A DNA stretch of 61,489 bases, from IMG/VR virus record IMGVR_UViG_3300025070_000030, positions 1-61,489 of that record, one strand, 5' to 3'. The position numbers and the translations under genes are program-made. A model generated the notes under the pieces. That model was not told the origin of the DNA. It made no database searches and saw only the letters and a list, made by a program, of their open reading frames with translations. How positions within the stretch are numbered: the first letter of the stretch is position 1; every line of letters begins with the position of its first letter. This DNA comes from a virus (taxonomy: Duplodnaviria > Caudoviricetes). This document shows positions 1,807-52,878 of this stretch, in pieces.

Positions 1807-2373
1807 TTTAATCTCCTAATCTGGATTCTAACTCAGCCACCTTTGCTGAGAGTTCTTTGATTGAATTGAGCATGTGCCAAAACAATTCATCGCTATCCAC
1901 AGTCTTAACGCCTGTGCTTTCAGTCTTTACGCATCTGGGTGCAACTGCTTCTAGTTCTTGCGCGATGACGCCAAGCTGTGTTCCTGAACGCTCTATTGCG
2001 TCAGATGCTTGAAGTTCTGTAATTTCATCTGCTGTTCGATACTCAAAGTTACGAACCTGCACTTGGTTGATAATCGACAGCCCGTCATTGTTATCAACAA
2101 TGTTTTTCTTCAGTCGTTCATCTGATGTGGTTGACCAAGACGATGAGTTGTTACCTTGATACACGCCACCACCACTAGGGCTGATAAAGCCTGTGGAGTT
2201 GCCTTTACCAACAATGTTAGCAGTACCAATAACAATTTGGTTTTGACCGTCAACACCACTTGGCTCACAGTCGATGCCCATAATTATGTTGTAATCGCCT
2301 GTCGTAATAGATTCTCCAGCAAGATAGCCTACTAAAACATTGTGACCACCATCAGTAATAGAATTACCAGCAT
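1590..2373. repeat. Imperfect direct repeat of about 4153..4936 (fibre C-terminus plus small gene)
   Basis: Offset 2563; mostly synonymous differences visible. Confidence 0.85.
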
Positions 2374-6455: not shown

Positions 6456-8011
6456 TCTCCGGCCTCCAACGTGGCTATACGAATTTCGAGTTCCTGAATG
6501 GTTGCCACAAGCAACGGAACCAGCTTCGATTGGTCGATGCCCTGATAGTCCGGCACAGAGCGCGTACCCATTTCTGCGGGTGTTACCTCATTGCCATCAT
6601 CGTCAAGAACCGCTGGTGTGACTTCGTATTGCTCTTCACACATAGCGTCTTTAGTTCCACTGACACTCTCCGGCACAACGGCCTGTGCCTCATGCGCTAA
6701 AAACCCGTCAACCGTTGTGTCTGCGTCAGAAATGAAGTTGAAGCGCACAGGATTGAGTTGTTTCAGCCTGTCGGTTGCGTTGGTGAGTGGCGTAACCGCT
6801 TCCTTTAGGCGATAGTCTGAGGATGTATTGTAGGCTGTTGAAGCGCCGTTGGTCTGTATTGACCCGACATTTGCGCCATTGCGTCTAAAGATGACTTGGG
6901 TATGTGTGTTTCCACTCGTGTCTGTGCTGTTCATCATCAGACCCGGACCATTATTTGAATTGTATTGGTGCGAAATATCCTCGCCTTGAATTGCACTGGT
7001 CGTGCCTTTACACATGCGCCCATCACTTTGGATGCGGAGGCGCTCCGTATTGCCAGTGCCGAATATAATTCTACCACTTTCACAATTATTCAGAATTGCA
7101 TCAGTGCCAATCAGCGCAAACTGTGCGCCACGATTAGAACCACTGGCTGGGTCTGAAAGTTTTAAATACGCGCCACTATCATCGTGGATATGTAGCACCC
7201 GTGAAGCACCAGCTACACTTACCCCAGCCAGTGAAGAGTCAATGGTTGGGTCATTCGTACCCATACCAATGCCCTTTGTTGCGCCTTCAACAACAAAAGA
7301 GTTGGCATCGCCAAGAGACTCAACACGGAAGTCTAGGTCTAATGAACTTTCGTTAAATACAGTTTCAGTAGCACCAAACTTAACGCTTTGCTCAACACTA
7401 CCGCCTTTTATCGTGCTTATATTTAGTGAGGAAGATTCATTGCCGTGAGCATTGTTGGTAATTATACTTTGAATATTTGCATATTGCTGGTCGTTGCCAG
7501 CGCCATCTTCACCGTGAAACAAAAGTTGACCTATTAGGTCGTTATCAGCAGGAGATGCACTGTTTCTGTAAAACTTTAATACTGGACCTTGAGTTGCATC
7601 CGCATCTGTAGACACAAGTGTGAGTTGCGGGTCGTTGTCGGCAGTGGTGATTGTGCAGCCGTCAGTTGCGGTGAACCCGCCCGTCACAGAAACACCAGAT
7701 GAGGTGGTTTCTAACTTTGGCACGTTGTTGAAGTTCAACTCAACTTTACCGTCCGACACACACTGTATCATTGTCTCGCCAGTGTACTTTTGAAGCGAAA
7801 TGTTATTGCCCCTGATTAGAAACGTGCCGTTAGCATATGTCTCATCAATATAGGCGTTTGTACCATCGTGGTACATTTCAAGTTTTCCAGAAGAAAAAGA
7901 AACCTTGTCACTGTCGCCAAAGTTAGCGTTGCCGTTGAACTCAGCATCACCAGTAACAGTCAGTTCGTCTGCCGTGTTAAATCTTGATATACCTGCGCCG
8001 ATATAACCCAT
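6452..8011 (-). CDS. Tail fibre with peptidase S74 chaperone
   Basis: GIGMGTNDP and TERLRI fibre motifs; SDYRLKE...GFLAHE...IDQSKLVPLL. Confidence 0.85.
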   Translation of the reverse strand: MGYIGAGISRFNTADELTVTGDAEFNGNANFGDSDKVSFSSGKLEMYHDGTNAYIDETYANGTFLIRGNNISLQKYTGETMIQCVSDGKVELNFNNVPKLETTSSGVSVTGGFTATDGCTITTADNDPQLTLVSTDADATQGPVLKFYRNSASPADNDLIGQLLFHGEDGAGNDQQYANIQSIITNNAHGNESSSLNISTIKGGSVEQSVKFGATETVFNESSLDLDFRVESLGDANSFVVEGATKGIGMGTNDPTIDSSLAGVSVAGASRVLHIHDDSGAYLKLSDPASGSNRGAQFALIGTDAILNNCESGRIIFGTGNTERLRIQSDGRMCKGTTSAIQGEDISHQYNSNNGPGLMMNSTDTSGNTHTQVIFRRNGANVGSIQTNGASTAYNTSSDYRLKEAVTPLTNATDRLKQLNPVRFNFISDADTTVDGFLAHEAQAVVPESVSGTKDAMCEEQYEVTPAVLDDDGNEVTPAEMGTRSVPDYQGIDQSKLVPLLVATIQELEIRIATLEAGE

Positions 8012-16884: not shown

Positions 16885-17862
16885 TTACGCAAAGTCGATG
16901 ACGCCGCGAACGACAGCTTCTGGGCGCAGAACTTTGCGACCAAAAACGTGCAGACCACGAATAACGTCAGAGAACGACTCAGTTGAACGAACCACTTCGG
17001 TCTTAGCAATGTGCGAAGCAGTGGAGGTGGACGACATGTGACCAGCGAGAATTACATTCTCAGAGGCGTCAGTTGCCACACCAGACAGAGTTACCTGATC
17101 GGTACCTGCTGTTGAGTTAAGCGCAGTAGACTTGTAACAGCGGAAACCAGCAAGGGTACCCGGAATAGCAAGACCGTTACGCAGTGGAGAAGTAGCGTCA
17201 CCAGTTACCTGAACTTCAGCCATCTTGTTTCCGGCTTGGAACATCTTCTCGTAGAAGATTGGTGGTGCTACAAACCAACGATTCTCTTCTGGCACAGACT
17301 GATCGTCCAGTGTACGTGCCATCAGCAGCATCAGGTTGATGCCAGCATCGTCAGTTTCTACGTTGATAGGAGCGGATGCAGTACCCAACGCACTGTTTGT
17401 AGTGGTAAGACCACCTGACAGTGAAGCGTCGTCAGCACCAGCGATACCTGCGCCATCAGAGATAGCTTGCAGGACGTTTGCATCGTACTTACGCTTCAGA
17501 GCAAATGCACCTGATGAGGTAGCAAGTGCTTCAAAGTTTACGTGCGAATGCCGCTCTTCGATGTCGTCAATCTTAAACGCGAAAGCGTTTGCGTTATCGA
17601 CAACCATCGTGATTTGATCGTCAGCCAAGTCTTGTGCGTTTACGACGGAACCCCGTGTATACGAACTGACTGTGACTGTTGGTTCTTTGATGATGCGAAC
17701 CGTGTCGCCAAAGTTTTCAATTTCGCCCGCGTAGTCGGTGTTTGTAATATCTTCTACAACCGAAGCACGACGGAAGAACTTGAGAACCTTTTGGCTAAAG
17801 ATTTCCGGTGCGAAGTTACCGGAAGGCAGGTTACCATAACCTGCAGCAGTACCAAATGCCAT
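16885..17862 (-). CDS. Major capsid protein
   Basis: NLPSGNF.PEIFS.KV...ITNTDYAGEIENFGDTVRI...RGLHVFGRKVLRPEA. Confidence 0.9.
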   Translation of the reverse strand: MAFGTAAGYGNLPSGNFAPEIFSQKVLKFFRRASVVEDITNTDYAGEIENFGDTVRIIKEPTVTVSSYTRGSVVNAQDLADDQITMVVDNANAFAFKIDDIEERHSHVNFEALATSSGAFALKRKYDANVLQAISDGAGIAGADDASLSGGLTTTNSALGTASAPINVETDDAGINLMLLMARTLDDQSVPEENRWFVAPPIFYEKMFQAGNKMAEVQVTGDATSPLRNGLAIPGTLAGFRCYKSTALNSTAGTDQVTLSGVATDASENVILAGHMSSTSTASHIAKTEVVRSTESFSDVIRGLHVFGRKVLRPEAVVRGVIDFA

Positions 17863-17891: not shown

Positions 17892-18785
17892 TTAGTTGTT
17901 AAGGTCGATCCGTCCCTCTTGACGTGCAGTGTCTAATTCGCTTTCCAGCTTTTCAAACTCCCACGGCTTGAGACTACGGATTTCAGAAGCTTTCCAAATT
18001 TTACCTTCTGTTTTAGTTGTAGCCACTTCTCTCGCGGAGGTTTTAGTGACTGCATCTGCTGCAGAAGCCCGTTTGGTTTTCTTCTTTGCCGATACGCCAG
18101 TATCAGCTTTGTAGAGGTCTATGACCCGTGCCGCCCATTTAGCATCCGTATTGTTTTTGTAGATGCCATCAGAAATAGATTCAGGCTGCTCTTCAAGCCA
18201 AGAAAGAAACTTTTCATCCACTTTGATTTCGTCGAAATCGGGATGGTGAGAAACAAGCTGCTGATACGCATTCTTTTTCTCTAGGTCTTTTTCTCGCTCT
18301 TTGATCGTTCCCAGTTCCTCGCGGAGTTGGGATACCTGTGATTCTGTTTGGAGCGAAGAAACGGTTTGTACGACATCAAACACTTCTGGATATTGAGACT
18401 TGAATTGTTCCAGTTCTTCCATCGTCTTTGGCATTGCTACGTTGTTTGGCATCTCTACCTCCCGCCGTTCCAGCGACTGCCTAAGTTCGTTGATTTCACC
18501 TTTGAACTCATTGACCTTAGTATCGTAGTGTCGTTTGAGATCGTCGTATCGTTTCTTGTAATCGTGTTCCGCTTCTTTTTTGTTTGAAACAAAACTGTCT
18601 GCACTTTCGGGAGTAGCCTCTTCGGGGTCCGCTTCTTGTGCTTCTACAGTCTCTTCCGCTTCGTTGTCTTCATCGTCATCTTTGTAGACATCTTCGCGGT
18701 GCTTTCCACGATATAACGAATCATTGTTGATTGTTCCGAATGAGTCGTTTGGTTTGTTGGCACGGTGGCCTCTTGGTTTTGCCAT
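17892..18785 (-). CDS. Capsid scaffolding protein
   Basis: Acidic coiled coil, YKKRYDDL, HPDF, C-terminal ARQEGRI; directly upstream of the MCP. Confidence 0.8.
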   Translation of the reverse strand: MAKPRGHRANKPNDSFGTINNDSLYRGKHREDVYKDDDEDNEAEETVEAQEADPEEATPESADSFVSNKKEAEHDYKKRYDDLKRHYDTKVNEFKGEINELRQSLERREVEMPNNVAMPKTMEELEQFKSQYPEVFDVVQTVSSLQTESQVSQLREELGTIKEREKDLEKKNAYQQLVSHHPDFDEIKVDEKFLSWLEEQPESISDGIYKNNTDAKWAARVIDLYKADTGVSAKKKTKRASAADAVTKTSAREVATTKTEGKIWKASEIRSLKPWEFEKLESELDTARQEGRIDLNN

Positions 18786-18877: not shown

Positions 18878-21400
18878 CTAATTTATTTCTTTACTACGAA
18901 ATTCTTCTCTATATCTAGCTGCTACTCTTTCTGCTAGTCGTTCATCACTCTTTGCTATTCTTTCAAGCACTTCATTTTTGCGCTGTTTATCTACAGCATC
19001 GTCAAATTTTTGTGAGGGATATTTTATGGGTTCAGCAGCTTTTAATTCTGGGTATTTTTTATACATAGCTTGTTGTATAACGGGTTCTGCATTATCCTGT
19101 AAGTACCGCCTAAATTGTGATAAGTAACCATCCCTAGTCATATTTGCAGTTTTTTCGTCTGTAGGAAACATGCCCCCCACTACTTTGAAAGCAATGTCTT
19201 TAGCTCTTAATTCTTCTCTAAGATCACTCTCTTCGTAGCCGAATGAATTTCCTATGTTAGCAAATTTTTCTGCATCAAGGTGTGCTATTTCTTCTGCTAG
19301 TACAAACAAATTAAATAGCGTCGGAGTCAAAGGCACGTTGATGTTGCTAGACCCTGCATAAAAATCTCCAAGTATGGGATTAGTTTTGTTTAGTCTAGCC
19401 ACTTCATTTGCGTATTCTAGATCGGCACCGCTGTAGTAATCGGAATCAACACTTAATTTAAAATCTTTATCTCGCATAACTTGAGCATCAGTAAATGTTT
19501 GAGCGTTCGTAAGCAACTCGTTCATCTTTCGATGCACTTCATCAGCTATAATCTTGTCTTCGTATTCGTCTACCTCACCGCCATCAGCTAACTTTTTTCT
19601 AGTGAGGAATCCACCCCCTGCTGCGCCCACAGGCTGCTGACCATTCTCTTTAATACGCTTAGACGTTTCTTTTTTACCGCGATTGTTGATCTTCTCTAGG
19701 CGGTCATAGCCAATAATCTTGGCGATAGCTGGCGGGACAATGACTTCTCCACGTGACACAGCTATGTCTATCTGTTCTTTTGACGGGGCACCCTTGCCTT
19801 GTTTACCTAGCTTTTTGTACGCAGTTTGTAGCATACGTGCTATGTCGTCCTCGCCCGCAAACTCTACGGCTGCTGCGTTGATAACAAACGTGCCGTCATC
19901 GACGCTCATAGGCTTGTCATCGGCCACTGTAGCAGCTTCAGATACCTGTGATGGCGGACGCTCTACAAAGCCCGCTGGTGCGGCTCGTGCGACCCCTCCG
20001 GGTGCATAGCCAACACGGCCACCCAGTGCGCGGTAGCCCCCACTACCGCCGACATTAGAGCCGCCCATGCCGCCATAGGAGCCACCGCTACCACCGGGAG
20101 CAGTGCCGCCGCCAGTAGCACCACTTTGTGTACCACCACTTTGTGTACCACCACTTTTTTCTTCGCTTTTAGAATCTTCTTTAGGTGGACCTGAAAAGTC
20201 AGACATTCCAAAATCGCCTGATACGTTACCTTTATCTGGCCCTTCATTAGCTAACACAGAAGCGGGATCAACACCGGGTTTTTGTTTCTTTTCTGAAGAG
20301 GCGTCACCTAACTTACTCTTCAAAAAATCAGACGAAAACTTTTTTGCCTCTTCCAAGTGCTTGTTGTAATCACCCAACGCTACATTACTTGTTTTATGAA
20401 ATATACCAGTTTTAAACTGCTTCATGTGTTCGTTGAGGGCTTGTTTTAGCTGTTGAGATAAGTCCCTTTTTCCTGCAGTAGCGGCACTAATTTGACTTGC
20501 GGTATATCCCATCTCCGTCATTAAATCAGTAGTGAACCTGTTTCGTGCTTTTGTGGCTTGAGTTGCACTAACATTTTGACTAGACCCATCAGACCCCACA
20601 ACAGTACCGTATGCGTCAACGGCAACGCCACTGGCTGTGGCTAGTGCTTTGTGACCGGTGTTGATGTATGTACCAACTGCATCAGGGCGAGAGTTGGCTA
20701 TTTCTTTCATCATGCCCGGAAGGAACCCCTTACTCATGTGTTCCAAGCCAGCCATTTGTCTTTGAGTGCCACTAAACACTCCAGAAAAAATTGTTTCTCC
20801 CGGCTTGCGGTAAACCAGTTGACCGTTTAGTTCAAACATGGAACCGCCACTGCCGCCTGTTGCGGCGATTGAGTCGGCTGTTTCTTTTTGTTTTTTGCGG
20901 TTCATTTCCGCCATAGCAGACAGGGCAGGTCCACCAAGCGGTCCAAGTCCCATCATAGTTCCTACAGCACTTCCAACAGCACCCTCTGGGGTTTTGTACA
21001 TGTCAGCGACGGCTTTACCAAACCCGCTAAGAGACTTATCTTTTTTTGCACCGTCTTGTATTGCTTTGCTAGGATCAACGTAGTCGTTTATGACTTCATT
21101 AAAGTCTTTTGTTTTAAAATCAAATGAACTTTCACCGCCCAGTGTGACCCCTGCGCCAAAGACAGTCGGTCTGTCTTCGTCGCTTCCTACGGGTGCAAGG
21201 ACGTTTGCCTGCACGTCCTGATCGTCGTCATCGTCGTCGTCATCGTCGTCAATAACCACGGGGTCAGTGATTGTTGGCATGTTGTAAAAATCAATGAACC
21301 GCGACTGGTACTCGTCTTGAGTCAACTCAGGAGCCGGATCAAAATACGGAGTGCCGCTAGTCACGGTAGTGGTGCCCGTTGTTGTGTCGTTTTCAGCCAT
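18878..21400 (-). CDS. Large internal virion protein with possible C-terminal zincin-like domain
   Basis: Between portal and scaffold; Gly-rich linkers, GEVIV motif, LAEEIAH...EELRA. Confidence 0.6.
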   Translation of the reverse strand: MAENDTTTGTTTVTSGTPYFDPAPELTQDEYQSRFIDFYNMPTITDPVVIDDDDDDDDDDQDVQANVLAPVGSDEDRPTVFGAGVTLGGESSFDFKTKDFNEVINDYVDPSKAIQDGAKKDKSLSGFGKAVADMYKTPEGAVGSAVGTMMGLGPLGGPALSAMAEMNRKKQKETADSIAATGGSGGSMFELNGQLVYRKPGETIFSGVFSGTQRQMAGLEHMSKGFLPGMMKEIANSRPDAVGTYINTGHKALATASGVAVDAYGTVVGSDGSSQNVSATQATKARNRFTTDLMTEMGYTASQISAATAGKRDLSQQLKQALNEHMKQFKTGIFHKTSNVALGDYNKHLEEAKKFSSDFLKSKLGDASSEKKQKPGVDPASVLANEGPDKGNVSGDFGMSDFSGPPKEDSKSEEKSGGTQSGGTQSGATGGGTAPGGSGGSYGGMGGSNVGGSGGYRALGGRVGYAPGGVARAAPAGFVERPPSQVSEAATVADDKPMSVDDGTFVINAAAVEFAGEDDIARMLQTAYKKLGKQGKGAPSKEQIDIAVSRGEVIVPPAIAKIIGYDRLEKINNRGKKETSKRIKENGQQPVGAAGGGFLTRKKLADGGEVDEYEDKIIADEVHRKMNELLTNAQTFTDAQVMRDKDFKLSVDSDYYSGADLEYANEVARLNKTNPILGDFYAGSSNINVPLTPTLFNLFVLAEEIAHLDAEKFANIGNSFGYEESDLREELRAKDIAFKVVGGMFPTDEKTANMTRDGYLSQFRRYLQDNAEPVIQQAMYKKYPELKAAEPIKYPSQKFDDAVDKQRKNEVLERIAKSDERLAERVAARYREEFRSKEIN

Positions 21401-21617
21401 TGTTTTTTACTACTGCCTCGTAGCTATCCTTCAGTTGAAGGAGGGTTTCCAGTAAAGCCAGCTTCCCCTGCAACTGGCGCAGTTCCGACTCCGATTGTGC
21501 CGTTACCACGGCCCGAATCGTCAAGTCCTTGAGGTCCGCTAGGTACTCCCGGAGCGGCTCCCATTCCTTGCTGTTGAGCATCGGGGCCAGCTTGCGGGCT
21601 TGGTCCTTGTTGAGCAT
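21393..21617 (-). CDS. Small portal-adjacent protein (overlaps the portal 3' end)
   Basis: W...YL...LRQLQGK helical pattern; coupled to 18878..21400. Confidence 0.6.
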   Translation of the reverse strand: MLNKDQARKLAPMLNSKEWEPLREYLADLKDLTIRAVVTAQSESELRQLQGKLALLETLLQLKDSYEAVVKNNG

Positions 21618-23544
21618 TTTGCATCATTCCTTGTAACATCTGTGCGTATACTTGCGCTTCGTTTTGATCGTTGACTAGGCTGTCAGGATCAATGTCCTGT
21701 GAGATAGCCAGTTCACGCATCAAGTTTGGTATCTTTACGAACGGAGCAAGCATGGGGTTAGCTACAGTCTGTAGCAACGAGGTAAGACGCTGTGTGCGGA
21801 CTTCTTTTTGCATGACGGCTGCAACGCCACGCGGTTTGATTTCTAGGTCGCCTGTGATGTCCTCAATGTTTTCACCAAACTGCATGTTCCACTGAAAGAA
21901 CGCTTCACCGATTGGCTTGAGGAGATGGTCGTCAATGTTTTTAATGACGGTCTTCATGGACAGTCCAGCGGAACCCATCAGCATGGACAGACCTGCAGCG
22001 GTACGTCCTGTTCCCGTGACTCCTGTTTGACCGTGAGTGATGGATGGTATGCCCGTCTCTTCGTCAGCAAGCTGCCGTGATATCTGATACATCTGAATGT
22101 TTTCACCGGCTGTGTTTGGAAACTTGAGTCCGTTGACAGCGGTGCCAGTGACTCCAGACTGACGGCGGAATATCTTGCCGGGAAAGATGTCCATGTTTTG
22201 TCCGGGAACAAGGGACGCTTCGTCCACGTCAAATACAAGGTTGCCAGCGAGGGCAAGATTGTCGATTGCCATACGAACGTGACCATTCATCAGCATCTGT
22301 GCGTCTTCCATGTTTTCCGCAACGCCAACACCCCAGATTTGATAGGGGTTGATTTCAAACGGAAACGACTGGTAGGGTATACGTGCCGGTGTGAATGGAT
22401 TCAGCACACAACGAAGGATCATTGTACCACACACCCAGATGTTGACCTGCATTTGGTCAAACTCTGACATGTTCTCTGCGCCCTCAAAGCCTACTTCTTT
22501 TGCAAACTTAGAGTCAAGGACGCCCCAATACTCAAGAACTTCGTATCTGTTTTCAGAAATGTGTGGTTCTGTTTCGTCTTCACGAATGGTGTCTTCGTAG
22601 TATTTATCTTCGTAGTTTGGTCCTTTTGCAAGGCACTCTTCGATTGCTTGGGCGTCAAAGTGTGGGCGCATGACAAGGCTGCGTAGCTGCTGCCGGTTCA
22701 TACGGTGCCGTTCGATGACGTACTCGCAGTCTTCTACAGACGTGGCGGAGGGATCAGGGTGAAAGTCCCAACACGAAACGTGTTCAATGCGGGGCACAGT
22801 GCGTTCGTACGGGGTGTACTCCCGCTCACCCTCTTCGTTAGTTGTCCACTTGTGTACCCGCTTGTAAAAGTTAAACGGGCCTTTGATCACTCCCGTACCA
22901 AACAGTGCTGACTCAAAGATAGCTTTGCGAAACTCACTGACGGCGTTGGTGTCAAGCAACTGATCGTGGATACACTTTTCCATCTTTCGTGCTTGTTCTT
23001 TTGCAGGTTCAAACTGTGGTTCACCCACACGAGACTTGCCCGCAAGGATCATGTCACCAAAGTCTTTACCGTACGATCCCAGTTTATGTGGATCATCCGC
23101 CCTCATGGCACCGGGTGCTAAGTCACGGCCATCTCCCGGAAACCCGTATGGATCACTTGGTTGTTGGTCTAGTTCGTCAGCGGGGGTACGCATGTGAGCA
23201 AACTCTTCAATGCCTTCTGGCATCGGAGTTGACTCCACGACAAGTGGGAACTTTTTGTTGGCAAACAAGATGTCGATAATTTGCCCGTACGCAGCAAGGA
23301 CTTTTGTTTTGGTGATCTTGATGAACACCTTTGATCTCTCGCTGTCGCGGTACTGCGTTGTACTGTCGTAGATTCCACGAAAGTTTTTGTACGCTTGCAG
23401 CCATCGCTGTTCGTTTGAAAACCGTCCGTTCTCTGCGTCGTCAAACCGTGCCCGTATGTGACCCGCAAGTCCGGGCATCTGCTCGTCAGGATTGGTTATC
23501 GGAATCGCTCGTTCTTCTTCCGGTTCTAGAAAATTATCGGACAT
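21424..23544 (-). CDS. Portal protein
   Basis: 706 aa; FGTGVIKGP, WDFHPDP, TAAGLSML; position between terminase and scaffold. Confidence 0.85.
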   Translation of the reverse strand: MSDNFLEPEEERAIPITNPDEQMPGLAGHIRARFDDAENGRFSNEQRWLQAYKNFRGIYDSTTQYRDSERSKVFIKITKTKVLAAYGQIIDILFANKKFPLVVESTPMPEGIEEFAHMRTPADELDQQPSDPYGFPGDGRDLAPGAMRADDPHKLGSYGKDFGDMILAGKSRVGEPQFEPAKEQARKMEKCIHDQLLDTNAVSEFRKAIFESALFGTGVIKGPFNFYKRVHKWTTNEEGEREYTPYERTVPRIEHVSCWDFHPDPSATSVEDCEYVIERHRMNRQQLRSLVMRPHFDAQAIEECLAKGPNYEDKYYEDTIREDETEPHISENRYEVLEYWGVLDSKFAKEVGFEGAENMSEFDQMQVNIWVCGTMILRCVLNPFTPARIPYQSFPFEINPYQIWGVGVAENMEDAQMLMNGHVRMAIDNLALAGNLVFDVDEASLVPGQNMDIFPGKIFRRQSGVTGTAVNGLKFPNTAGENIQMYQISRQLADEETGIPSITHGQTGVTGTGRTAAGLSMLMGSAGLSMKTVIKNIDDHLLKPIGEAFFQWNMQFGENIEDITGDLEIKPRGVAAVMQKEVRTQRLTSLLQTVANPMLAPFVKIPNLMRELAISQDIDPDSLVNDQNEAQVYAQMLQGMMQNAQQGPSPQAGPDAQQQGMGAAPGVPSGPQGLDDSGRGNGTIGVGTAPVAGEAGFTGNPPSTEG

Positions 23545-23553
23545 GTCGCTTCC

Positions 23554-23772
23554 TTAGTAGTCGCGTTCGTCTGCCATTTTAAAAAGTGAAGCTTCTACCG
23601 TAGCTTTTGTTTGCTTCTTTGGCATTGCTTCGATCATTGGGCCTGTCTGTACACGAGTGTCGAATTCCAAACCTTCGCGGTACAGTTGTGATGCGCCTTC
23701 GTCTTTATCAACGCTGGTCTTATCTGCGTTCATAATGTACGATGCACCGTAGTTGTAGTTATTACCGGGCAT
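23554..23772 (-). CDS. Hypothetical small protein
   Basis: GGGGAG RBS; tight gene packing. Confidence 0.65.
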   Translation of the reverse strand: MPGNNYNYGASYIMNADKTSVDKDEGASQLYREGLEFDTRVQTGPMIEAMPKKQTKATVEASLFKMADERDY

Positions 23773-23801
23773 AGGTTTCTCTCCCCTATGGTTGTGGAAG
23801 C

Positions 23802-25640
23802 TTAGATAGTAATGCGAGGGTCAGCTTCTTTTTCCCTCTTTGGAACAAACCCCTGCTCGTCGTCGGGTATATTTCCAAATTCATCTCCAAAGTCGTACTG
23901 GCGGTCTTGCGCCTCTTGCATCATGGAGGGTATTTTCATATCTTGTTTTTCGCGGGAAAGTGCGCCAGTTGCCATTTCGACTACTACTCCTGCGCCGCCT
24001 CCCATTCTTGGCAAAAAGTCGGTTGTTTCTTGGCCTAATTTTTCAGCCACAAACTCCTCGCCTTTTCTTTGTGCAACATCGTAGGGGTCTTCTGCATCAC
24101 CAACAAATGTCTTTTCTATAACGGCTGCACTCAAGTCGGCAACAGGTCCGGGAACAACTTTCAAGGCTGCAAGACTTGCAAGGGAACCAGATTTGAGCGT
24201 AGAACTAAGCTTGTCCCACAATCCAAGTCTTTTTAATTTTTCTATAGTTTCGTCGCTGATGTTGCCTTCGGGTGTGTCGCCTGTTTGATCAAGCTTAGAT
24301 GCACGAACATCTGCCCGTATTTCTTTCTCGCGCATGCGGCGTAGTTCATCGGCTTTTACTTTTTCTATGTCAACTTCTGCTGCCCTAGCTATTTCTTCTG
24401 GGGTTACAGAAGCCTTTGCCTTTATTTCTTTGGCTTGCGCCTCTGCAACAGCAGCCCCTGCAGCAGCCCGTCTTGCTTTTTCTTCTTCAATTATTGTAAG
24501 CTTCTGATCTTCTATCAGTGCCGCCCTGTCCTCATCAGACAGAAGGTCTATATTGATATTCTTAGGCGTTGTGCCGAAATCTCCCACTGCAAAACTGGAT
24601 GGATTTTCAAGAAGTTTAGGAATATCTGTTGACGGCGCAAGACCTGCATAGTTTTTACGAAGAATGCTGTCATTGACATGCCCCATTACTCCCTGTACAA
24701 GTGCCTCTGGAATGTTGTATTGATCCAACATAATTTTAGGAACAATAGAGCGTATGGCAGAGGGGGTAGTAACTGGCTTTTCAGAAAGCTGTATTCCGTC
24801 TGGACCTTCAACTTTTATTTCTGCAAGAGGTAGTAACTCTGAATACTGTTCAAGACGAGGGGTAATATGCTTGGCAAACGCATCGTCAAAATTTGCAGTG
24901 CTAGTATCAAATAAAAATTCAGACTTAGTTGAGTCTAGATTTCTTTTAAGTAGTTGACCCGTTGGCGAATCTAAATCAAAAGTTAGAGGAGGGCGTCCCT
25001 TTTTATCAGTTTTTGTTACTTTTTTACCGGCTACTGTTATTGTGTTGTTTGAAACAGTAACGTCAGATTTCTTTAGACCTTGTAATTGAGAAGGTCTGTG
25101 AGATGTTGTCGCATGATACTTTGCAAGATCGGCGGTGGCTTGCCCGTACTCTGCTTGAATAAGGGGCACAGCTTCAGCGTACATCTTGGCAAAGTCTTCC
25201 ATTGGAAGAAGACCACGCATGGGACGCTCACCCGCCATGCCTGTGCGTTGAGTTCCAGCTACAGTCCCCGTGCCCGTAAGCTGTGGGTACATGGCTACTT
25301 CAATATCGCTGCCCGGAACTTTCTCCATTACACCGGAGATTGCATACTTACTAAACAAATCTTTTATGTTGTTTTCTAACGCTTGAAGGTTAGGCGCACG
25401 ATTTGATTTGTCTGGGCTATTTTCTTTAGTAAAAAGTGTTAAAACCTTATCGTCTTTAAGGTCTTTGTAGGGCATGGTAATATCCAAGCCCATTACCTTA
25501 AAGCCTGAAGTAAGTGTGCCTATTCTTTTTTTGGCGTTGGGGCTGGTTGTCGGACGTGATCTAGCAAAGCTGATAGCTTCTTCCACGGTAGCGGTGCCAG
25601 CCTTCATCTTTTCTACAAACTCTATTTCAGTGAGTGCCAT
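23802..25640 (-). CDS. Tyrosine-recombinase-fold protein with long helical C-terminal extension
   Basis: TSHRPSQL..LK..DV (box I R), TKT (K), TPSAIRS (box II R), MGH and KNY in canonical order. Confidence 0.7.
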   Translation of the reverse strand: MALTEIEFVEKMKAGTATVEEAISFARSRPTTSPNAKKRIGTLTSGFKVMGLDITMPYKDLKDDKVLTLFTKENSPDKSNRAPNLQALENNIKDLFSKYAISGVMEKVPGSDIEVAMYPQLTGTGTVAGTQRTGMAGERPMRGLLPMEDFAKMYAEAVPLIQAEYGQATADLAKYHATTSHRPSQLQGLKKSDVTVSNNTITVAGKKVTKTDKKGRPPLTFDLDSPTGQLLKRNLDSTKSEFLFDTSTANFDDAFAKHITPRLEQYSELLPLAEIKVEGPDGIQLSEKPVTTPSAIRSIVPKIMLDQYNIPEALVQGVMGHVNDSILRKNYAGLAPSTDIPKLLENPSSFAVGDFGTTPKNINIDLLSDEDRAALIEDQKLTIIEEEKARRAAAGAAVAEAQAKEIKAKASVTPEEIARAAEVDIEKVKADELRRMREKEIRADVRASKLDQTGDTPEGNISDETIEKLKRLGLWDKLSSTLKSGSLASLAALKVVPGPVADLSAAVIEKTFVGDAEDPYDVAQRKGEEFVAEKLGQETTDFLPRMGGGAGVVVEMATGALSREKQDMKIPSMMQEAQDRQYDFGDEFGNIPDDEQGFVPKREKEADPRITI

Positions 25641-25643
25641 AGG

Positions 25644-27314
25644 TTAGTATCCGAATACTTCGTCTTGAACTTGGTGGACGTGGTTCTTGATTGCACCCAG
25701 TTGTTGGTGTATGGAAGCGTAGCCACTCATGCGTGTCATCATTCCGTAGCGCAACGCATCGTATGCGTGATCCTCTGCCTTTGTATCTACATCTTCGCTG
25801 TTTGTTTTGGAGAGCGGTATGCCAGCAATCTGTTTGACTATGTTGCTGCACGTAGAAAAGAAGCGGATGCGTGGTTCCTCTGTGTACGGATTGTCAGCTA
25901 GGCGGCGGTGTATTTCCATTTTGCCTTGAATGCGGTTGCGGTCTGCTGGTGTCCAGCGAACACCCTGTCGCATCATTACCTCTGCAATCGAAGGTCCAAA
26001 ACCTGTCTTGTTCCAGCAAGACGAGTCAAGGACCGTGTAGTGTGGTAATGGGTCTAGTTGTTCTGCTGCTAGTATTCTATCAGCTAATTGTTCTGCTGTC
26101 AAGTGTTTTTCGTATAATTCTCTGTAAATCCAAATGTTGTCGTCCCAGTCGATTGCACCCCACAGAACACACGAGGGTGCAGCGTACCCGTAGTCAGCCA
26201 TCCGTATGCGCGGCCAGTTGGTTGGCAGTTCGAACGGTTCAACGACGTGCTTGGTGCGGCTGAACTCTGGGAAGGCCGCTCCCTCTGCCACGTCCCAATC
26301 CCCTTCAAGAAGTCGCTTTCGTTCAACATCCGGGAGCGATCTGAGCATGGCCTCATACTGGCCGTCTGCCATCAGATGGGGATTGTCAGTCAACCGTGCC
26401 GGTACAAACTTACGAAAGAACAGCGGCTGACCTGCCTTTTCGTGGCCGGGGGGCCACACAAAGTCTTTTTTTGTCTCTATATCGAACGCAGGAAAAGGTT
26501 TGTTTTCTGGAGTTCCGTCGATGTAGGTTTTCTTGACCCACCAACCACCCACTCCTCCGGGGTTGGCAGTGCAGCGCATGTACAGGTGTTGCTGGAGTTC
26601 AGGATCAGTAGTACGAAGGCGAGAACGCAGGTAATCCCAGACGTAGGGTGTAGGATATTGGGTAATCTCATCAATGCCTATCCAGTTGAACGCTTGTCCC
26701 TGAAAGCGAGTTACGTCTTTGTCTTTGTCTAGGTAGGTGAACCAGATTGTTGCTCCGGAGGGAAAGTGCCACGTTGACTTGGACTCACGAAACTTTGCAC
26801 CGGGAAAAGCTTTTGTGTATAGCTGGCGTGACTTGTCGATCAGTTCGGTTAGTTCGTCCAGAGTGCGACGAAGCAGTAGACCGCGATGGTTGCTATTGTG
26901 ACAAAAGCGTAACGGGTCTGCAAGAAGCGCGAAACTTTTTCCACCACCGGCTGCACCACCGTATAGTACGTCGCGTTCACCAGCAGACAAAAACTCTTCT
27001 TGAGGCCCAGCGTTGGGCTGGAATACAATCTCACTGTCCTTGACCAACTCTGAAACGGCACTAGGCAGTTCAGACAAATCTCCTTGATCAACGACTTTAG
27101 TTTCCGTACCAACAAGTGCCTTTTCTACCTTTGTTATCTTTGCTTCAAGATTGCGGGCGTATCTGCGTTTGTCTTCGGCTGCTTTTGTTGTTTTGGCTGC
27201 GCGACGTTTGGCCCCGTTCAGTTTCTTTTGGGCAGCACGACGGGCACGTTCCTTTACGGACAGGTTGTACGAGGCTTTGGGTGCGTTGGGGTCTTTCTTA
27301 GGGCGTCCTGCCAC
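25644..27314 (-). CDS. terL: Terminase large subunit
   Basis: YGGAAGGGKS Walker A, IGIDE Walker B, TANPGG, C-terminal DHAYDALRY. Confidence 0.95.
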   Translation of the reverse strand: MAGRPKKDPNAPKASYNLSVKERARRAAQKKLNGAKRRAAKTTKAAEDKRRYARNLEAKITKVEKALVGTETKVVDQGDLSELPSAVSELVKDSEIVFQPNAGPQEEFLSAGERDVLYGGAAGGGKSFALLADPLRFCHNSNHRGLLLRRTLDELTELIDKSRQLYTKAFPGAKFRESKSTWHFPSGATIWFTYLDKDKDVTRFQGQAFNWIGIDEITQYPTPYVWDYLRSRLRTTDPELQQHLYMRCTANPGGVGGWWVKKTYIDGTPENKPFPAFDIETKKDFVWPPGHEKAGQPLFFRKFVPARLTDNPHLMADGQYEAMLRSLPDVERKRLLEGDWDVAEGAAFPEFSRTKHVVEPFELPTNWPRIRMADYGYAAPSCVLWGAIDWDDNIWIYRELYEKHLTAEQLADRILAAEQLDPLPHYTVLDSSCWNKTGFGPSIAEVMMRQGVRWTPADRNRIQGKMEIHRRLADNPYTEEPRIRFFSTCSNIVKQIAGIPLSKTNSEDVDTKAEDHAYDALRYGMMTRMSGYASIHQQLGAIKNHVHQVQDEVFGY

Positions 27315-27316
27315 GT

Positions 27317-27520
27317 CTATTCTTTCTCTGCTGAACCTTCTGCAGAACGTCCCTTTGCATTGGGGTTAGCTTCGTTCCACATACGCATACCTTCAGTTAC
27401 TTTATCTTTGTCTCCACCGTAAACGCGATTCAAATGGTTGTATGCTTCACGCTTGGTCATTTCGGTAAAGTCAGTTGTCAAGTCTTTTGCGGCTCTAACC
27501 ACGTCTTTAAAAAATTCCAT
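27317..27520 (-). CDS. Hypothetical small protein
   Basis: Coupled between the terminase genes; ends KGRSAEGSAEKE. Confidence 0.65.
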   Translation of the reverse strand: MEFFKDVVRAAKDLTTDFTEMTKREAYNHLNRVYGGDKDKVTEGMRMWNEANPNAKGRSAEGSAEKE

Positions 27521-27930
27521 CAGTCTGTTCCTTCTATCACTACTTCTTTTTTGGGCGGAAGGAGGACTACACCGTGAACCGCCGTTACGTTGTGGTTGAT
27601 TTGTTCCGCTTGTTTGACTCCTACGCGGTTCAGGAGGCTTTCGGCAGCTTTGAGACGTAGATCATCACCTCTTTCGGGGGCGGGATTGTCTATTGTCGCT
27701 ACAAGTCTGTTGGCTGCTTTGAATGCGTTCATAGATAGCACGTCTTTTGTGCGTTCTACTATCTCATCTGCCAATGTTTTGCGTAACCACGACGCACTAC
27801 CCACAGAATACCCTGCATCTGTGGCTGCAGCGGTGATATTTCCGCCGTTTTCAAACAGTATGTCAAGAAAAAGGGACTGTTGGGTGGTTAGTTCCCGTTT
27901 TTTGGCGGGTTGTTGGGGCATCAGGTTCAT
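27520..27930 (-). CDS. Probable terminase small subunit (start MNLMPQQ)
   Basis: LT.QQ..FL....GNI..AA..AGYS HTH; LKAAESLLNRVG; VVLLPPK. Confidence 0.75.
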   Translation of the reverse strand: MNLMPQQPAKKRELTTQQSLFLDILFENGGNITAAATDAGYSVGSASWLRKTLADEIVERTKDVLSMNAFKAANRLVATIDNPAPERGDDLRLKAAESLLNRVGVKQAEQINHNVTAVHGVVLLPPKKEVVIEGTD

Positions 27931-27932
27931 TT

Positions 27933-28133
27933 TTACGTGGCTTCTCCAGCTTTGGTAGTGCATCGTGTGCCCGAAACAATCATAAACGGTGTTATTTCTT
28001 GTACGTTGCCTATCATCACCTCTACACGAGCCATACATTCCTCTTTTGTTTTGTATGGACCCCAGTCGTCAGTGACTACCATACATCCCTGCATGGCATT
28101 TATGTGACAAATGAGTAACATTGCTGTGTACAT
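27933..28133 (-). CDS. Small Cys-containing secreted/membrane protein
   Basis: Hydrophobic start, GPYKTKEEC, C-terminal Cys. Confidence 0.65.
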   Translation of the reverse strand: MYTAMLLICHINAMQGCMVVTDDWGPYKTKEECMARVEVMIGNVQEITPFMIVSGTRCTTKAGEAT

Positions 28134-28255
28134 GGTAATCTTTCGGGAAAATGAGGAGTGTAGACCGATTCACTGTAGCCACAATCTCGTGTGTTGTGCA
28201 AATATCGCTATGAAATCGGAGAGATGTGCTAAGTCTGAATACGACCTACGCACCT

Positions 28256-29735: not shown

Positions 29736-29736
29736 C

Positions 29737-52323: not shown

Positions 52324-52878
52324 TTACTCCTCCATCTGGCCTTGCATGTTCATAAAGTTATCTTCTGTTGGGGGTGTAGGGGCGTTGCCCTGCCGGATAC
52401 CCTTGTTCAGTGCTTCTGCTACGTATGTAAACATGGCGGGATTGTTTTCAGCCATCATGTTAAAGAACGTCTGATCATCCATCTCGTCTTCGGTCAGTGC
52501 GTCTTCGTTTTCAAACATACGGTACGGCACGTCGTTTTCTTCAGCCATGTTAGCTATGTACATGGCAAGTGGTCCCTTGATAAGCAAACCCACGTCGGGC
52601 ATAAACTGTCCGTCCTGAAAGGCTTGGAAAATGTACCCCTCCACAAGAGCCTCAACAGATGCGCCAACCATCAACAGCTTCAGCATTTCTTCACGAGTCT
52701 GTTTGATTTCAAGGGAGTCGATTGCAGAACGTAGTGCAGCTTCAGGATTAACCTCACGAGGAGGTTGACCCCACGGCCACCGTTCGTTGTCGCTTATCAA
52801 ACCGTATCCCGGAGGAGCGGTTGCAAACGGGTCTTTTGCTTCAATGCTTCCCGGTGCGGGCATCATCTCTTCAGCCAT
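52324..52878 (-). CDS. Hypothetical virion-module protein
   Basis: PPG..L......WPW.QPP pattern; RBS. Confidence 0.65.
   Translation of the reverse strand: MAEEMMPAPGSIEAKDPFATAPPGYGLISDNERWPWGQPPREVNPEAALRSAIDSLEIKQTREEMLKLLMVGASVEALVEGYIFQAFQDGQFMPDVGLLIKGPLAMYIANMAEENDVPYRMFENEDALTEDEMDDQTFFNMMAENNPAMFTYVAEALNKGIRQGNAPTPPTEDNFMNMQGQMEE

What the first reader, a model, noticed from the sequence alone, without database searches (positions are those of the whole stretch)
23802..25640. Tyrosine-recombinase-fold protein embedded between terminase and portal: candidate virion-delivered recombinase
Seen: R, K, xxR, GH and Y catalytic-type motifs in the correct order (SHRPSQL, TKT, SAIRS, MGH, KNY), with the box II His replaced by Ser. 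A roughly 270-aa charged helical tail follows. The gene lies 3 nt after terL in the late operon, with no adjacent repressor or excisionase. Known: integrases normally sit in lysogeny/early modules; loss of the HxxR His also occurs in telomere resolvases and topoisomerase IB. Inference: the enzyme is packaged and injected to circularise, integrate or protect the genome before gene expression, or it resolves concatemers during packaging.
Basis: partly seen in the sequence, partly recalled or inferred. Interest (0 to 1): 0.85.

Follow-up and report, generated by a model that had tools for sequence, protein, structure and literature searches.

The report
Tailed recombinase in phage head operon
A large group of uncultured ocean phages carries, between its DNA-packaging and portal genes, a DNA cutting-and-rejoining enzyme with a long extra tail that looks built to travel with the virus particle, although that has not been shown.

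Summary
Window 23802-25640 (minus strand) encodes a 612-aa protein. Residues 1-350 fold confidently as a two-domain tyrosine recombinase, closest to Tn1549 Int, XerH, lambda Int and Cre. R182, K214, R297 and Y331 are invariant in 60 of 60 homologues, and H321 is kept in 57 of 60. The box II His is never present (Ser in 47 of 60). A 260-aa helical, then disordered, tail follows.

The window is an uncultured HMO-2011-type marine podophage of about 53.1 kb. In 80 related IMG/VR contigs the gene always sits in the terL-portal slot. Cultured relatives lack it. No canonical integrase, repressor or excisionase was found.

New here:
- Most homologues end in a short [SNG]-F-[LMIV] peptide, which also marks the C-termini of two other late proteins.
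- A sigma-70-like promoter inside terL, kept at synonymous sites, starts the transcription unit that YR heads.
- The enzyme is swapped between near-identical phages.

Packaging into the virion is plausible (about 0.35) but unproven. A Cre-like or packaging-stage role, or an oddly placed integrase, remain live. The scan noted the same gene type on other DNA (e1-6286003 and others). I found no description in the papers searched.

The parts
23802..25640 (-). YR612: 612-aa tyrosine-recombinase-fold protein with a C-terminal tail (whole gene, including stop)
   Evidence: ORF and translation. PF00589 at E 1.8e-5 and phrog_1 at E 5.8e-9. AF2 model. Foldseek hits to Tn1549 Int, XerH, lambda Int and Cre.
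25293..25640 (-). Residues 1-116: helical N-terminal domain that aligns with the core-binding domain of Int/Xer/Cre
   Evidence: Helices 5-98, pLDDT 93-98. Foldseek alignments of about 350 columns span this domain plus the catalytic domain.
25203..25292 (-). Residues 117-146: extended Gly/Arg-rich linker (MYPQL..GTQRTG.AGERPMRG), near-invariant in the family. Role unknown; DNA contact is my inference.
   Evidence: Invariant columns M117-G143 in the 28-sequence alignment. R132 is kept in 52 of 60 and R139 in 53 of 60. No secondary structure is predicted, at pLDDT 80-96.
24591..25202 (-). Residues 147-350: catalytic domain. Codons: R182 (25095-25097), K214 (24999-25001), S294 (24759-24761), R297 (24750-24752), H321 (24678-24680), Y331 (24648-24650).
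   Evidence: Residue counts in 60 homologues. HMMER alignment to XerD 5dcf/1a0p. Pfam match to residues 178-333.
23805..24590 (-). Residues 351-612: variable tail. It has long helices (369-534), a Gly/Ala/Pro-rich hydrophobic patch, then a disordered end. This window's variant ends ..DDEQGFVPKREKEADPRITI.
   Evidence: AF2 secondary structure and pLDDT. Tail hydrophobic segments in 29 of 29 homologues examined. C-terminal [SNG]F[LMIV] within the last 12 residues in 106 of 154 homologues, against 1 and 0 of 154 in control windows.
26074..26102 (-). Sigma-70-like promoter (TTGACA-17-TAGAAT, TG before the -10) inside the terL coding sequence, about 430 nt upstream of the YR start
   Evidence: 11 of 12 consensus match. 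TTGACA..TA[GA]AAT is kept in 64 of 70 related loci while neighbouring third codon positions vary; the other 6 read TTTACA. It is absent at the homologous terL site of HTVC115P and HMO-2011.
25644..27314 (-). terL (large terminase), immediately upstream; its stop lies 3 nt before the YR start
   Evidence: PF03237 and phrog_979 at E 8.5e-60. Junction sequence.
23554..23772 (-). orf72: small conserved protein between YR and portal. Its C-terminus ..EASLFKMADERDY resembles the shared peptide.
   Evidence: Found in 70 of 80 loci. C-termini listed. No Pfam or PHROG family.
21424..23544 (-). Portal protein (SU10 type). The N-terminus M-S-D-N-F-L-E-P carries a peptide of similar type.
   Evidence: PF23899 at E 1e-25. 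N-termini of 36 of 36 complete portal ORFs in related loci. Absent from the HTVC115P and HMO-2011 portals.
52324..52878 (-). p184: small late protein next to two very large late proteins (807 and 1621 aa). It ends ..PTPPTEDNFMNMQGQMEE, the same type of peptide as most YR C-termini.
   Evidence: [NSG]F[LMI] in the last 30 residues of 118 of 120 homologues. F175 is invariant. No family or fold match. Its role as an internal virion protein is inferred from position only.
18878..21400 (-). p840: large variable protein after the portal, with internal ..AGFVERPP.. and ..GGGFLTRKK.. peptides (context)
   Evidence: Translation. Motif scan of the window and loci. No family.

Best explanation
YR612 is a catalytically competent but divergent tyrosine site-specific recombinase. 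It has a core-binding domain and a catalytic domain, with R182, K214, R297, H321 and Y331 in place and Ser instead of the box II His. It is fused to a virion-protein-like tail of about 260 aa.

It is a fixed component of the head-assembly and packaging gene block in a large clade of uncultured HMO-2011-type marine podophages. It is transcribed from a conserved promoter inside terL together with orf72, portal, p840, the scaffold-like protein and the capsid protein.

My preferred mechanism is as follows. The tail, through its terminal [SNG]-F-[LMIV] peptide, brings a few copies of the enzyme into the procapsid with the other internal proteins. The enzyme then enters the cell with the DNA. There it acts on the incoming genome before any phage gene is expressed, either circularising it at a phage site or integrating it.

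Shown: the fold, the conserved active site, the conserved gene position, the tail in all full-length members, the conserved terminal peptide, the promoter conserved at synonymous sites, and allele swapping.

Inferred: catalytic activity, co-transcription, capsid loading, ejection, and the DNA substrate.
For: Fold and active site:
- The AF2 model has pLDDT above 90 over about residues 1-320.
- Foldseek against PDB gives 12 matches at E<=0.001, all tyrosine recombinases: Tn1549 Int 6emy at E 3.9e-5, XerH, lambda Int and XerA, with Cre just below.
- Foldseek against BFVD gives 20 matches at E<=0.001; those that carry a name in the table are integrases or integrase-type (DNA_BRE_C) domains.
- R182, K214, R297 and Y331 are kept in 60 of 60 homologues and H321 in 57 of 60.

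Fixed head-block position:
- terL lies upstream in 77 of 80 IMG/VR loci and portal downstream in 68 of 80. There is no counter-example; the remainder are cut by contig ends.
- The start lies 3 nt after the terL stop, and no terminator-like site was found on that strand between YR and portal.

Promoter:
- TTGACA-17-TAGAAT lies inside terL and is kept in 64 of 70 loci at synonymous sites.
- It is absent from 2 of 2 YR-less relatives. One of these (HTVC115P) has a promoter-like site directly before its portal gene.

Tail:
- All full-length homologues are about 530-780 aa, and none is a stand-alone integrase of about 350 aa.
- The tail is hypervariable, yet [SNG]F[LMIV] lies in the last 12 residues in 106 of 154 homologues. 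Control windows give 1 and 0 of 154, and shuffled tails give a mean of 1.6.
- The same type of peptide is found near the C-terminus of p184 in 118 of 120 homologues, at the orf72 C-terminus and at the portal N-terminus in 36 of 36 loci.
- It is absent from the p184 homologues examined in HTVC115P and CRP-235 and from the portals of HTVC115P and HMO-2011; all three phages lack YR in the phage collection.

No lysogeny module:
- The replication module starts with primase and helicase, with no int gene.
- No repressor or excisionase family was found.

Precedent:
- Podovirus internal virion proteins host domains destined for the cytoplasm, such as the N4 virion RNA polymerase and the H66 methylase (PMC4819975, passages read).
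Against: - No virion proteomics or expression data exist for any member, because all are metagenomic.
- The window's own YR ends in a variant (..QGFVPKREKEADPRITI) whose GFV lies 14-16 residues from the end, so it is not among the 106 of 154.
- The shared peptide is short and was defined after seeing the data. Within the window, a strict version hits 2 of 61 ORF C-termini, and 8 of 500 shuffles do as well.
- The sequences counted are related to one another.
- p184 has no family or fold match, so calling it an internal virion protein rests on position alone.
- The gene is not in the usual internal-virion-protein operon.
- The conserved promoter could equally be a private promoter for early or independent expression of the recombinase, as recalled for lambda pI inside xis.
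- Allele swapping of the enzyme part is what int-attP cassettes of temperate phages do.
- No target site was identified.
Confidence: 0.35

Rival explanations
1. Non-packaged recombinase that works on phage DNA in the infected cell. One version is Cre-like: it circularises terminally redundant genomes or resolves multimers and concatemer junctions. The other acts at the packaging stage beside terminase and portal. In both, the tail serves for oligomerisation or for tethering to the packaging machinery rather than for loading into the capsid.
For: - The two-domain Cre/Xer-like fold has no arm-binding domain.
- The gene abuts terL and lies about 2.7 kb from a repeat-rich non-coding block upstream of terS.
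- No lysogeny genes were found.
- P1 cre also lies near its pac and terminase genes (recalled, not from a call).
- An earlier follow-up on other DNA also named Cre as closest (e1-6286003).
Against: - No lox-like site was found. Only two weak inverted repeats lie in 20-34 kb.
- The strand-biased GGCGG repeats upstream of terS recur with different YR alleles, so they do not track the enzyme.
- Terminase alone resolves concatemers in related phages that lack YR.
- This reading does not explain a hypervariable tail with a conserved terminal peptide shared with other late proteins.
Confidence: 0.28
2. An ordinary integrase for lysogeny that happens to sit between terL and portal. The conserved promoter inside terL gives it expression of its own, and different alleles target different host sites.
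For: - The closest folds are integrases of phages and transposons.
- Some sources label homologues 'integrase'.
- The enzyme part is swapped between near-identical phages: 9 of 80 loci have terL at least 90% identical but YR no more than 42% identical, and in three of them the portal is also 88-92% identical. This is what int cassettes do.
- The promoter could be private to the gene.
- Other HMO-2011-type phages are temperate through a canonical int (PMC9038755, passages read).
Against: - No relative of the protein was found in one genome for each of 185,579 species, using the two family-invariant motifs. This is weak, because the whole phage clade is nearly absent from that collection: 6 short phage-only contigs were found, and none of the 3 that span terL to portal has YR.
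- No repressor, excisionase or attP-like partial tRNA was found. The one tRNA match is full length.
- No non-coding DNA flanks the gene that could hold an attP.
- Transcripts from the promoter would run on into the portal gene.
- Every family member carries a tail of 200-400 aa that integrases do not need.
- The contigs laid on the window showed no phage-host joint, although contigs cannot exclude one.
Confidence: 0.25
3. A structural or assembly protein that has kept a recombinase fold but no longer catalyses DNA strand exchange.
For: The box II His is missing in 60 of 60 homologues. The Pfam score is below the gathering cut-off. The gene sits among structural genes.
Against: The nucleophile Tyr, both Arg and the Lys are invariant in 60 of 60 sequences down to 22% identity, while the rest of the protein diverges. 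That pattern points to selection on catalysis. Loss of this His is tolerated in known enzymes of the fold (recalled).
Confidence: 0.05

Closest known systems
Tyrosine integrases and Xer recombinases (Tn1549 Int, XerH, lambda Int, XerD)
   Same: Same two-domain fold (Foldseek E 3.9e-5 to 1e-3, probability 1.00). Same order of catalytic Arg, Lys, Arg, His and Tyr, which HMMER aligns to XerD.
   Different: - Only 13-16% identity.
- Below the Pfam cut-off.
- No sequence hit in the PDB with the single protein.
- Box II His replaced by Ser or another small residue in 60 of 60 homologues.
- A near-invariant 30-residue Gly/Arg linker.
- A tail of about 260 aa.
- Encoded in the head and packaging block, with no lysogeny partners.
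Cre of phage P1 (with loxP)
   Same: Cre is among the fold matches (E 8e-3 to 3e-2). It is a stand-alone two-domain enzyme without an arm-binding domain. As recalled, cre lies near the P1 pac and terminase genes and circularises incoming terminally redundant DNA.
   Different: No lox-like site was found here. Cre is 343 aa with no tail (recalled) and is not thought to be carried in the capsid.
Podovirus internal virion proteins that carry cytoplasm-destined enzyme domains (N4 gp50 virion RNA polymerase, H66 gp60 methylase)
   Same: An enzyme that must work in the cytoplasm is joined to a long, mostly helical virion-type segment (PMC4819975, passages read; tail helices).
   Different: Those lie in the internal-virion-protein operon after the tail-tube genes, and their presence in virions is shown. 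Here the gene lies between terL and portal, and presence in virions is untested. No recombinase cargo was found in the papers I searched.
Poxvirus type IB topoisomerase (recalled as a virion-core enzyme of the same catalytic fold)
   Same: An enzyme of the tyrosine-recombinase catalytic fold that is carried inside a virus particle. The box II His position is also not His (recalled).
   Different: No topoisomerase IB chain appears among the listed Foldseek matches. The N-terminal domain here is of the recombinase core-binding type.
Telomere resolvases (TelN, TelK, ResT)
   Same: Similar overall length (about 600 aa, recalled), tyrosine-recombinase catalytic fold, and a non-His residue at the box II position (recalled).
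   Different: None is among the listed fold matches. No long palindrome lies near the gene. The extra length here is a disordered or helical tail, not folded flanking domains.
Canonical int of HMO-2011-type phages (subgroups I-III)
   Same: Same phage group and the same enzyme superfamily.
   Different: That int lies upstream of the replication module (PMC9038755; PMC8528129). This window has none there. YR612 gives no tblastn match in 50,697 phage records, which include those phages.

Membership tests
Tyrosine recombinase superfamily (Pfam PF00589 type) | Catalytic-domain fold, with a preceding core-binding domain forming a clamp | tested here: met
   AF2 pLDDT above 90 over about residues 1-320. 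Foldseek probability 1.00 to Tn1549 Int, XerH, lambda Int and Cre over about 330-380 columns.
Tyrosine recombinase superfamily (Pfam PF00589 type) | Tyr nucleophile with Arg-Lys-Arg-His/Trp partners in order | tested here: met
   R182, K214, R297 and Y331 in 60 of 60 homologues; H321 in 57 of 60. Aligned to the corresponding XerD residues by HMMER.
Tyrosine recombinase superfamily (Pfam PF00589 type) | Box II His of the HxxR motif | tested here: not met
   Never His: S 47, G 4, T 4, A 3, M 2 of 60.
Tyrosine recombinase superfamily (Pfam PF00589 type) | Score at or above the Pfam gathering cut-off | tested here: not met
   25.1 bits against 27.1. Some homologues carry a precomputed PF00589 hit.
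Temperate-phage integrase (lysogeny module) | Sits with repressor, excisionase or attP in an early or lysogeny module | tested here: not met
   The neighbours are terL, orf72 and portal. No such families were found in 28.4-33.6 kb. Flanking gaps are 3 and 29 nt.
Temperate-phage integrase (lysogeny module) | Copies found integrated in bacterial genomes | tested here: inconclusive
   No relatives were found in one genome for each of 185,579 species. However, the phage clade itself is almost absent there: 6 short phage-only contigs.
Temperate-phage integrase (lysogeny module) | Identifiable attP/attB pair | not tested
   The host is unknown and no candidate site was found. The full-length tRNA at 43585-43657 was not followed to host genomes.
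Telomere resolvase | Fold similarity to TelK, TelA or ResT, and a long palindromic target near the gene | tested here: not met
   None among the listed Foldseek rows. Only two weak 16-nt inverted repeats in 20-34 kb.
Type IB topoisomerase | Fold similarity to poxvirus or bacterial topoisomerase IB | tested here: inconclusive
Internal virion (ejected) proteins of podoviruses | Present in purified virions | not testable with these tools
   All members are metagenomic. No virion proteome of a YR-carrying phage was found in the papers searched.
Internal virion (ejected) proteins of podoviruses | Extensively helical or coiled segment | tested here: met
   Helices at 369-410, 414-452 and onward to 534. 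This criterion follows PMC4819975.
Internal virion (ejected) proteins of podoviruses | Gene lies in the operon after the tail-tube genes | tested here: not met
   The gene lies between terL and portal.

The most novel reading that the evidence does not exclude
A major group of ocean podophages loads a site-specific recombinase into its capsid through a portable C-terminal docking peptide shared with other internal head proteins, and injects it with the DNA. This would be a 'pilot recombinase' that circularises or integrates the genome before any phage gene is expressed, and whose specificity module is swapped between otherwise identical phages. It would be the first tailed phage known to deliver its own recombinase, the functional counterpart of a retrovirus carrying its integrase.
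Probability: 0.3. Interest if true: 0.9.

Novelty: new variant of a known kind. Interest (0 to 1): 0.7.

Why it matters
HMO-2011-type phages are among the most abundant virus groups in the sea. Most of their subgroups have been read as obligately lytic because no lysogeny gene was recognised (PMC9038755, passage read). Here a conserved, apparently active recombinase sits in the head gene block of a large uncultured clade, which reopens that inference.

If the enzyme travels in the particle, this would be a new way for a tailed phage to secure its genome at entry: circularisation, integration or end protection without gene expression. That would be useful in slow-growing oligotrophic hosts.

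The swappable enzyme part and the portable terminal peptide would also be of practical interest, as a compact recombinase family and as a capsid-loading tag.

If it is only an integrase in an odd place, it still changes lifestyle predictions for these phages. It also shows that Pfam-threshold screens miss it.

Tried and rejected
- Complex prediction. The capsid protein (alignment A4) was folded with YR tail residues 470-612. The verdict was 'no answer' (score 0.00), which is evidence neither way. The choice of capsid protein as receptor was a guess. Portal, scaffold and p840 were not tried because the cap is one job.
- Tail as scaffold homologue. A profile of the family hit the phage 80alpha scaffold chain 6b0x at E 2.7e-4, but with a bias of 20.5 out of 23.4 bits in a Lys/Glu/Ala-rich stretch. 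hhalign of YR against this phage's own scaffold-like protein gave probability 1%. I reject this as compositional.
- Telomere resolvase and topoisomerase IB. Neither is among the listed fold matches, and there is no palindrome near the gene.
- p184 as a T7 gp14-type protein. The AF2 model has mean pLDDT 71.5. Foldseek against the PDB gave nothing at E<=0.001. There is no Pfam or PHROG family, and the Atlas gave only unnamed viral clusters. The Atlas search with the YR tail gave no usable hit.
- Prophage search. There were no YR relatives in genome contigs. A control scan with the capsid protein found 6 short phage-only contigs. The 3 that span terL to portal have no YR.
- Contigs of four runs laid on 16000-34000.
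  - No joint to foreign DNA was listed.
  - Contigs of run X5 (possibly the source sample) bridge 23542-26098 and 26080-33540.
  - Relatives' contigs leave the window sequence at 25644 in X5 and X16. This fits the allele swap but is not independent proof.
  - Depth differences between genes are not used, as the tool warns.
- Repeat block at 28.3-28.8 kb as the recombinase's site. It holds three to four GGAGTCAGTG repeats and seven same-strand GGCGG motifs. Same-strand GGCGG clusters recur upstream of terS in relatives with very different YR alleles. So they more likely serve packaging or transcription. This remains unresolved.
- Papers. I found no paper describing this gene with these searches: 'HMO-2011-type' + 'integrase', 'HMO-2011' + 'recombinase', recombinase/terminase/portal/virion proteome, packaged/capsid/tyrosine recombinase/ejected/phage, and phrases for a virion-borne integrase. 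I read passages only of PMC9038755, PMC8528129, PMC4819975 and bioRxiv 10.1101/2019.12.14.876532. All other papers were seen as search listings only. Supplementary Table 2 of PMC9038755 (protein groups) may name this gene, but supplements were closed.
- Recalled, not taken from any call: the P1 cre/loxP/pac layout, vaccinia topoisomerase in virions, lambda pI inside xis, sizes and residues of TelN, TelK and ResT, T7 gp14-16, and P22 scaffold-dependent loading of ejection proteins.
Full report
WHAT THE WINDOW IS

The window is a phage genome that runs past its own start. ORFs 4371..6455 and 6452..8011 recur at 57509..59593 and 59590..61149, a period of 53,138 bases.

The large terminase is most similar to those of Pelagibacter phage HTVC115P (50%), Roseobacter phages of the CRP series (up to 57%) and Puniceispirillum phage HMO-2011 (53%). 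So this is an uncultured HMO-2011-type marine podophage.

On the minus strand the gene order is:
- terS 27520..28038
- a 67-aa ORF
- terL 25644..27314
- the target gene 23802..25640
- orf72 23554..23772
- an SU10-type portal 21424..23544
- an 840-aa protein
- a scaffold-like protein 17892..18785
- the capsid protein 16885..17862

Replication genes (primase, helicase, exonuclease, family A polymerase, ribonucleotide reductase) run on the plus strand from 33.6 kb.

THE OBSERVATION

The ORF is real and lies on the minus strand, with 612 aa. It starts 3 nt after the terL stop.

Pfam PF00589 matches residues 178-333 at E 1.8e-5 but scores 25.1 bits against a cut-off of 27.1. PHROG phrog_1 (integrase) matches at E 5.8e-9. 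The single sequence finds nothing in 50,697 phage records by tblastn and nothing among PDB sequences.

The protein has its own family:
- 128 proteins at E<=1e-3 in the 90%-clustered collection, among 8000 candidates scored.
- 62 cluster representatives in the exhaustive search of 1.84 billion proteins.
- All are from marine or other metagenomes, and none carries a cultured-phage name.
- Full-length members are about 530-780 aa. No stand-alone form of about 350 aa appeared in the length-unrestricted search.

FOLD AND ACTIVE SITE

An AlphaFold2 model built on 60 homologues has pLDDT above 90 for about residues 1-320. It shows a helical N-terminal domain (1-116), an extended linker (117-146) and an alpha/beta catalytic domain (147-350).

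Foldseek against the PDB gives 12 matches at E<=0.001, all tyrosine recombinases. They are Tn1549 integrase, XerH, lambda Int and an archaeal Xer, aligned over 330-380 columns and so covering both domains. Cre follows at E of about 1e-2. No telomere resolvase or type IB topoisomerase is in the list.

Against predicted viral structures there are 20 matches at E<=0.001. Those that carry a name in the table are integrases or integrase-type (DNA_BRE_C) domains.

In the 60-sequence alignment, which reaches 22% identity, R182, K214, R297 and Y331 are invariant, and H321 is kept in 57 of 60. A profile-to-PDB search aligns these residues to the Arg, Lys, HxxR, GH and Tyr of XerD.

The box II His is never present: Ser in 47, Gly in 4, Thr in 4, Ala in 3 and Met in 2 of 60. 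Invariance of the nucleophile and its partners in an otherwise fast-diverging protein argues that the enzyme is active. This is inference, not an assay.

The linker MYPQL..GTQRTG.AGERPMRG is almost invariant among the closer homologues. It has no counterpart that I know of.

A FIXED AND UNUSUAL PLACE

A pattern search of IMG/VR with the family alignment returned 80 loci.
- terL lies directly upstream on the same strand in 77 of 80. The other three loci begin at the gene.
- The portal lies downstream in 68 of 80. The other twelve end within 876 bases of the match.
- orf72 is found in 70 of 80.
- There is no counter-example.

The cultured relatives lack the gene. HMO-2011 has terL directly followed by portal, and HTVC115P has three small ORFs there.

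The published survey of this phage group places the canonical integrase upstream of the replication module in subgroups I-III. It states that subgroups IV-X have no identifiable lysogeny genes (PMC9038755, passages; likewise PMC8528129). This window has no integrase at that place. No repressor or excisionase family was found in the ORFs between 28.4 and 33.6 kb; the only hit is a generic HTH_11 protein.

A PROMOTER THAT GOES WITH THE GENE

The consensus scan found TTGACA-17-TAGAAT, with TG before the -10, on the minus strand at 26102-26074. This is inside terL, about 430 nt before the YR start.

Across 70 related loci that align there, 64 keep TTGACA..TA[GA]AAT and the other six read TTTACA. 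Neighbouring third codon positions vary freely, whereas the Leu TTG, Thr ACA and Ile ATA codons do not. This points to selection on the DNA itself.

The homologous terL sites of HTVC115P and HMO-2011 have no such element. HTVC115P has a promoter-like site directly in front of its portal gene.

No terminator-like site on that strand separates YR from orf72 and portal.

My reading is that in this clade the head-gene transcript begins in front of YR, so YR is made together with portal and scaffold. This is inferred. The same element could instead give the recombinase expression of its own.

THE TAIL AND A SHARED TERMINAL PEPTIDE

Residues 351-612 are predicted as long helices (369-534) followed by a disordered end. 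In 29 of 29 homologues examined, the tail holds a Gly/Ala/Pro-rich, moderately hydrophobic patch. Its sequence is hypervariable.

Even so, [SNG]-F-[LMIV] lies within the last 12 residues in 106 of 154 homologues longer than 500 aa. Two control windows inside the tail give 1 and 0 of 154, and shuffled tails give a mean of 1.6. The sequences are related, so these counts are not independent events. Typical ends are ..DNFLTMQP..QGFLTR..SGGFIEKRR and ..SFLYGGVVR.

The same kind of peptide appears elsewhere:
- Near the C-terminus of p184 (52324..52878..PPTEDNFMNMQGQMEE). It is present in 118 of 120 homologues, and the two exceptions look truncated.
- At the C-terminus of orf72 (..SLFKMADERDY and variants).
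- At the N-terminus of the portal (M-[AS]-D-N-F-L-[EQ]-P and variants) in 36 of 36 complete portal ORFs.

It is absent from the p184 homologues examined in HTVC115P and CRP-235 and from the portals of HTVC115P and HMO-2011. All three phages lack YR in the phage collection.

In five longer YR-carrying genomes, both YR and p184 carry peptides of this type. There are hints of matching variants, for example ..SFLTMQP with ..SFMNMK and ..MFGIQ with ..SFLGVQP. Five pairs are too few for a test.

Caveats:
- The motif is short and was defined after the fact. Within this window a strict version hits 2 of 61 ORF C-termini, and 8 of 500 shuffles do as well.
- This window's own YR ends in a variant, ..QGFVPKREKEADPRITI.
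- p184 has no family or fold match. Calling it an internal virion protein rests only on its place next to the 807-aa and 1621-aa late proteins.

SWAPPING

YR identity does not follow its neighbours. Nine of 80 loci have terL at least 90% identical to the window but YR no more than 42% identical. In three of these (L037-L039) the portal is also 88-92% identical.

Conversely, L004 and L005 have terL 99% and portal 96-100% identical, and YR 90% identical over residues 1-476, yet a different tail end.

Contigs of relatives in two runs leave the window sequence exactly at the terL stop, 25644.

So both the enzyme part and the tail end behave as exchangeable modules inside a conserved frame. An earlier follow-up in this scan reached the same conclusion on other DNA (e1-6286003).

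HOW IT MOST LIKELY WORKS

I commit to the following, at about 0.35. The protein is an active site-specific recombinase made with the head proteins. The tail and its terminal peptide load a few copies into the procapsid, together with other internal proteins that carry the same peptide. The enzyme enters the cell with the DNA and acts on the incoming genome, by circularisation at a phage site or by integration, before phage genes are expressed.

The precedent is that podovirus internal virion proteins host cytoplasm-destined domains, such as the N4 virion RNA polymerase and the H66 methylase (PMC4819975).

The rivals are:
- A non-packaged, Cre-like or packaging-stage recombinase (0.28).
- An ordinary integrase with its own promoter and swappable specificity (0.25).
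- A non-catalytic structural protein (0.05).

The search of bacterial genomes found no family member. That is weak evidence against lysogeny, because the phage clade itself is nearly absent from that collection.

NOVELTY

The enzyme belongs, by fold and active site, to a known superfamily. Its architecture, its fixed place in the head block, the family-wide loss of the box II His, the linker, the conserved terminal peptide and the intragenic promoter together make it a new variant.

I found no description of it in the papers searched. Supplements that might list it were closed.

The scan itself has flagged the same gene type on other genomes: e1-6286003, e1-6287720, e1-6309695, e1-6312665, e1-6323415 and e1-6327270.

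Noticed in passing
window 43585-43657 (+): Rfam finds a full-length tRNA (RF00005, 42.9 bits against a gathering score of 29), just after the ribonucleotide reductase gene. ARAGORN reported no tRNA in the window. The alignment suggests an anticodon loop of unusual length. The last residues of the reductase (..VCEVVDLNAA) are encoded again about 200 nt downstream.
   Followed up: partly
window 28300-28840: Non-coding block upstream of terS. It has divergent consensus sigma-70-like promoters (28284-28256 minus strand, 28302-28330 plus strand), three to four tandem GGAGTCAGTG repeats (28361-28399) and seven GGCGG motifs, all on one strand. Same-strand GGCGG clusters recur upstream of terS in several relatives with different YR alleles. 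It is a candidate pac or regulatory region.
   Followed up: partly
window 18878-21400 (-): The 840-aa protein after the portal is hypervariable apart from a segment at about residues 478-600, which is conserved in all related loci. It has an Asp run and long Gly-rich stretches, and no Pfam or PHROG family. It may correspond to the minor head or ejection proteins encoded after portals in other phages.
   Followed up: partly
window 1-8350 and 53139-61489: The window overlaps itself with a period of 53,138 bases, but ORF 1808..4105 (765 aa) and ORF 54892..57243 (783 aa) differ at their C-termini. The contig therefore joins two variants of a fibre gene rather than being a clean circle.
   Followed up: no
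P0067, P0106 and relatives (homologues of YR612): Some family members carry an extra N-terminal segment of about 140 aa (MANDDIKFVKENS...). This corresponds to the 340-430 nt 'gap' between terL and the YR match in loci such as L016, L017 and L062.
   Followed up: no
L170 (genome contigs, single-cell assembly labelled Pelagibacteraceae, 22.5-kb contig): An HMO-2011-type phage fragment (capsid protein 54% identical, terL 47%) sits in a SAR11 single-cell assembly. It has no YR in the terL-portal slot. It hints at the host range of related phages.
   Followed up: partly
window 17892-18785 (-): The scaffold-like protein has an invariant N-terminal ..RANKPNDSFGTINNDSLY.. segment, and the capsid protein starts ..LPSGNFAPEIF... 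Both contain [DN]-[SN]-F-type peptides. These could belong to the same recognition system as the YR and p184 termini, or could be coincidence.
   Followed up: no
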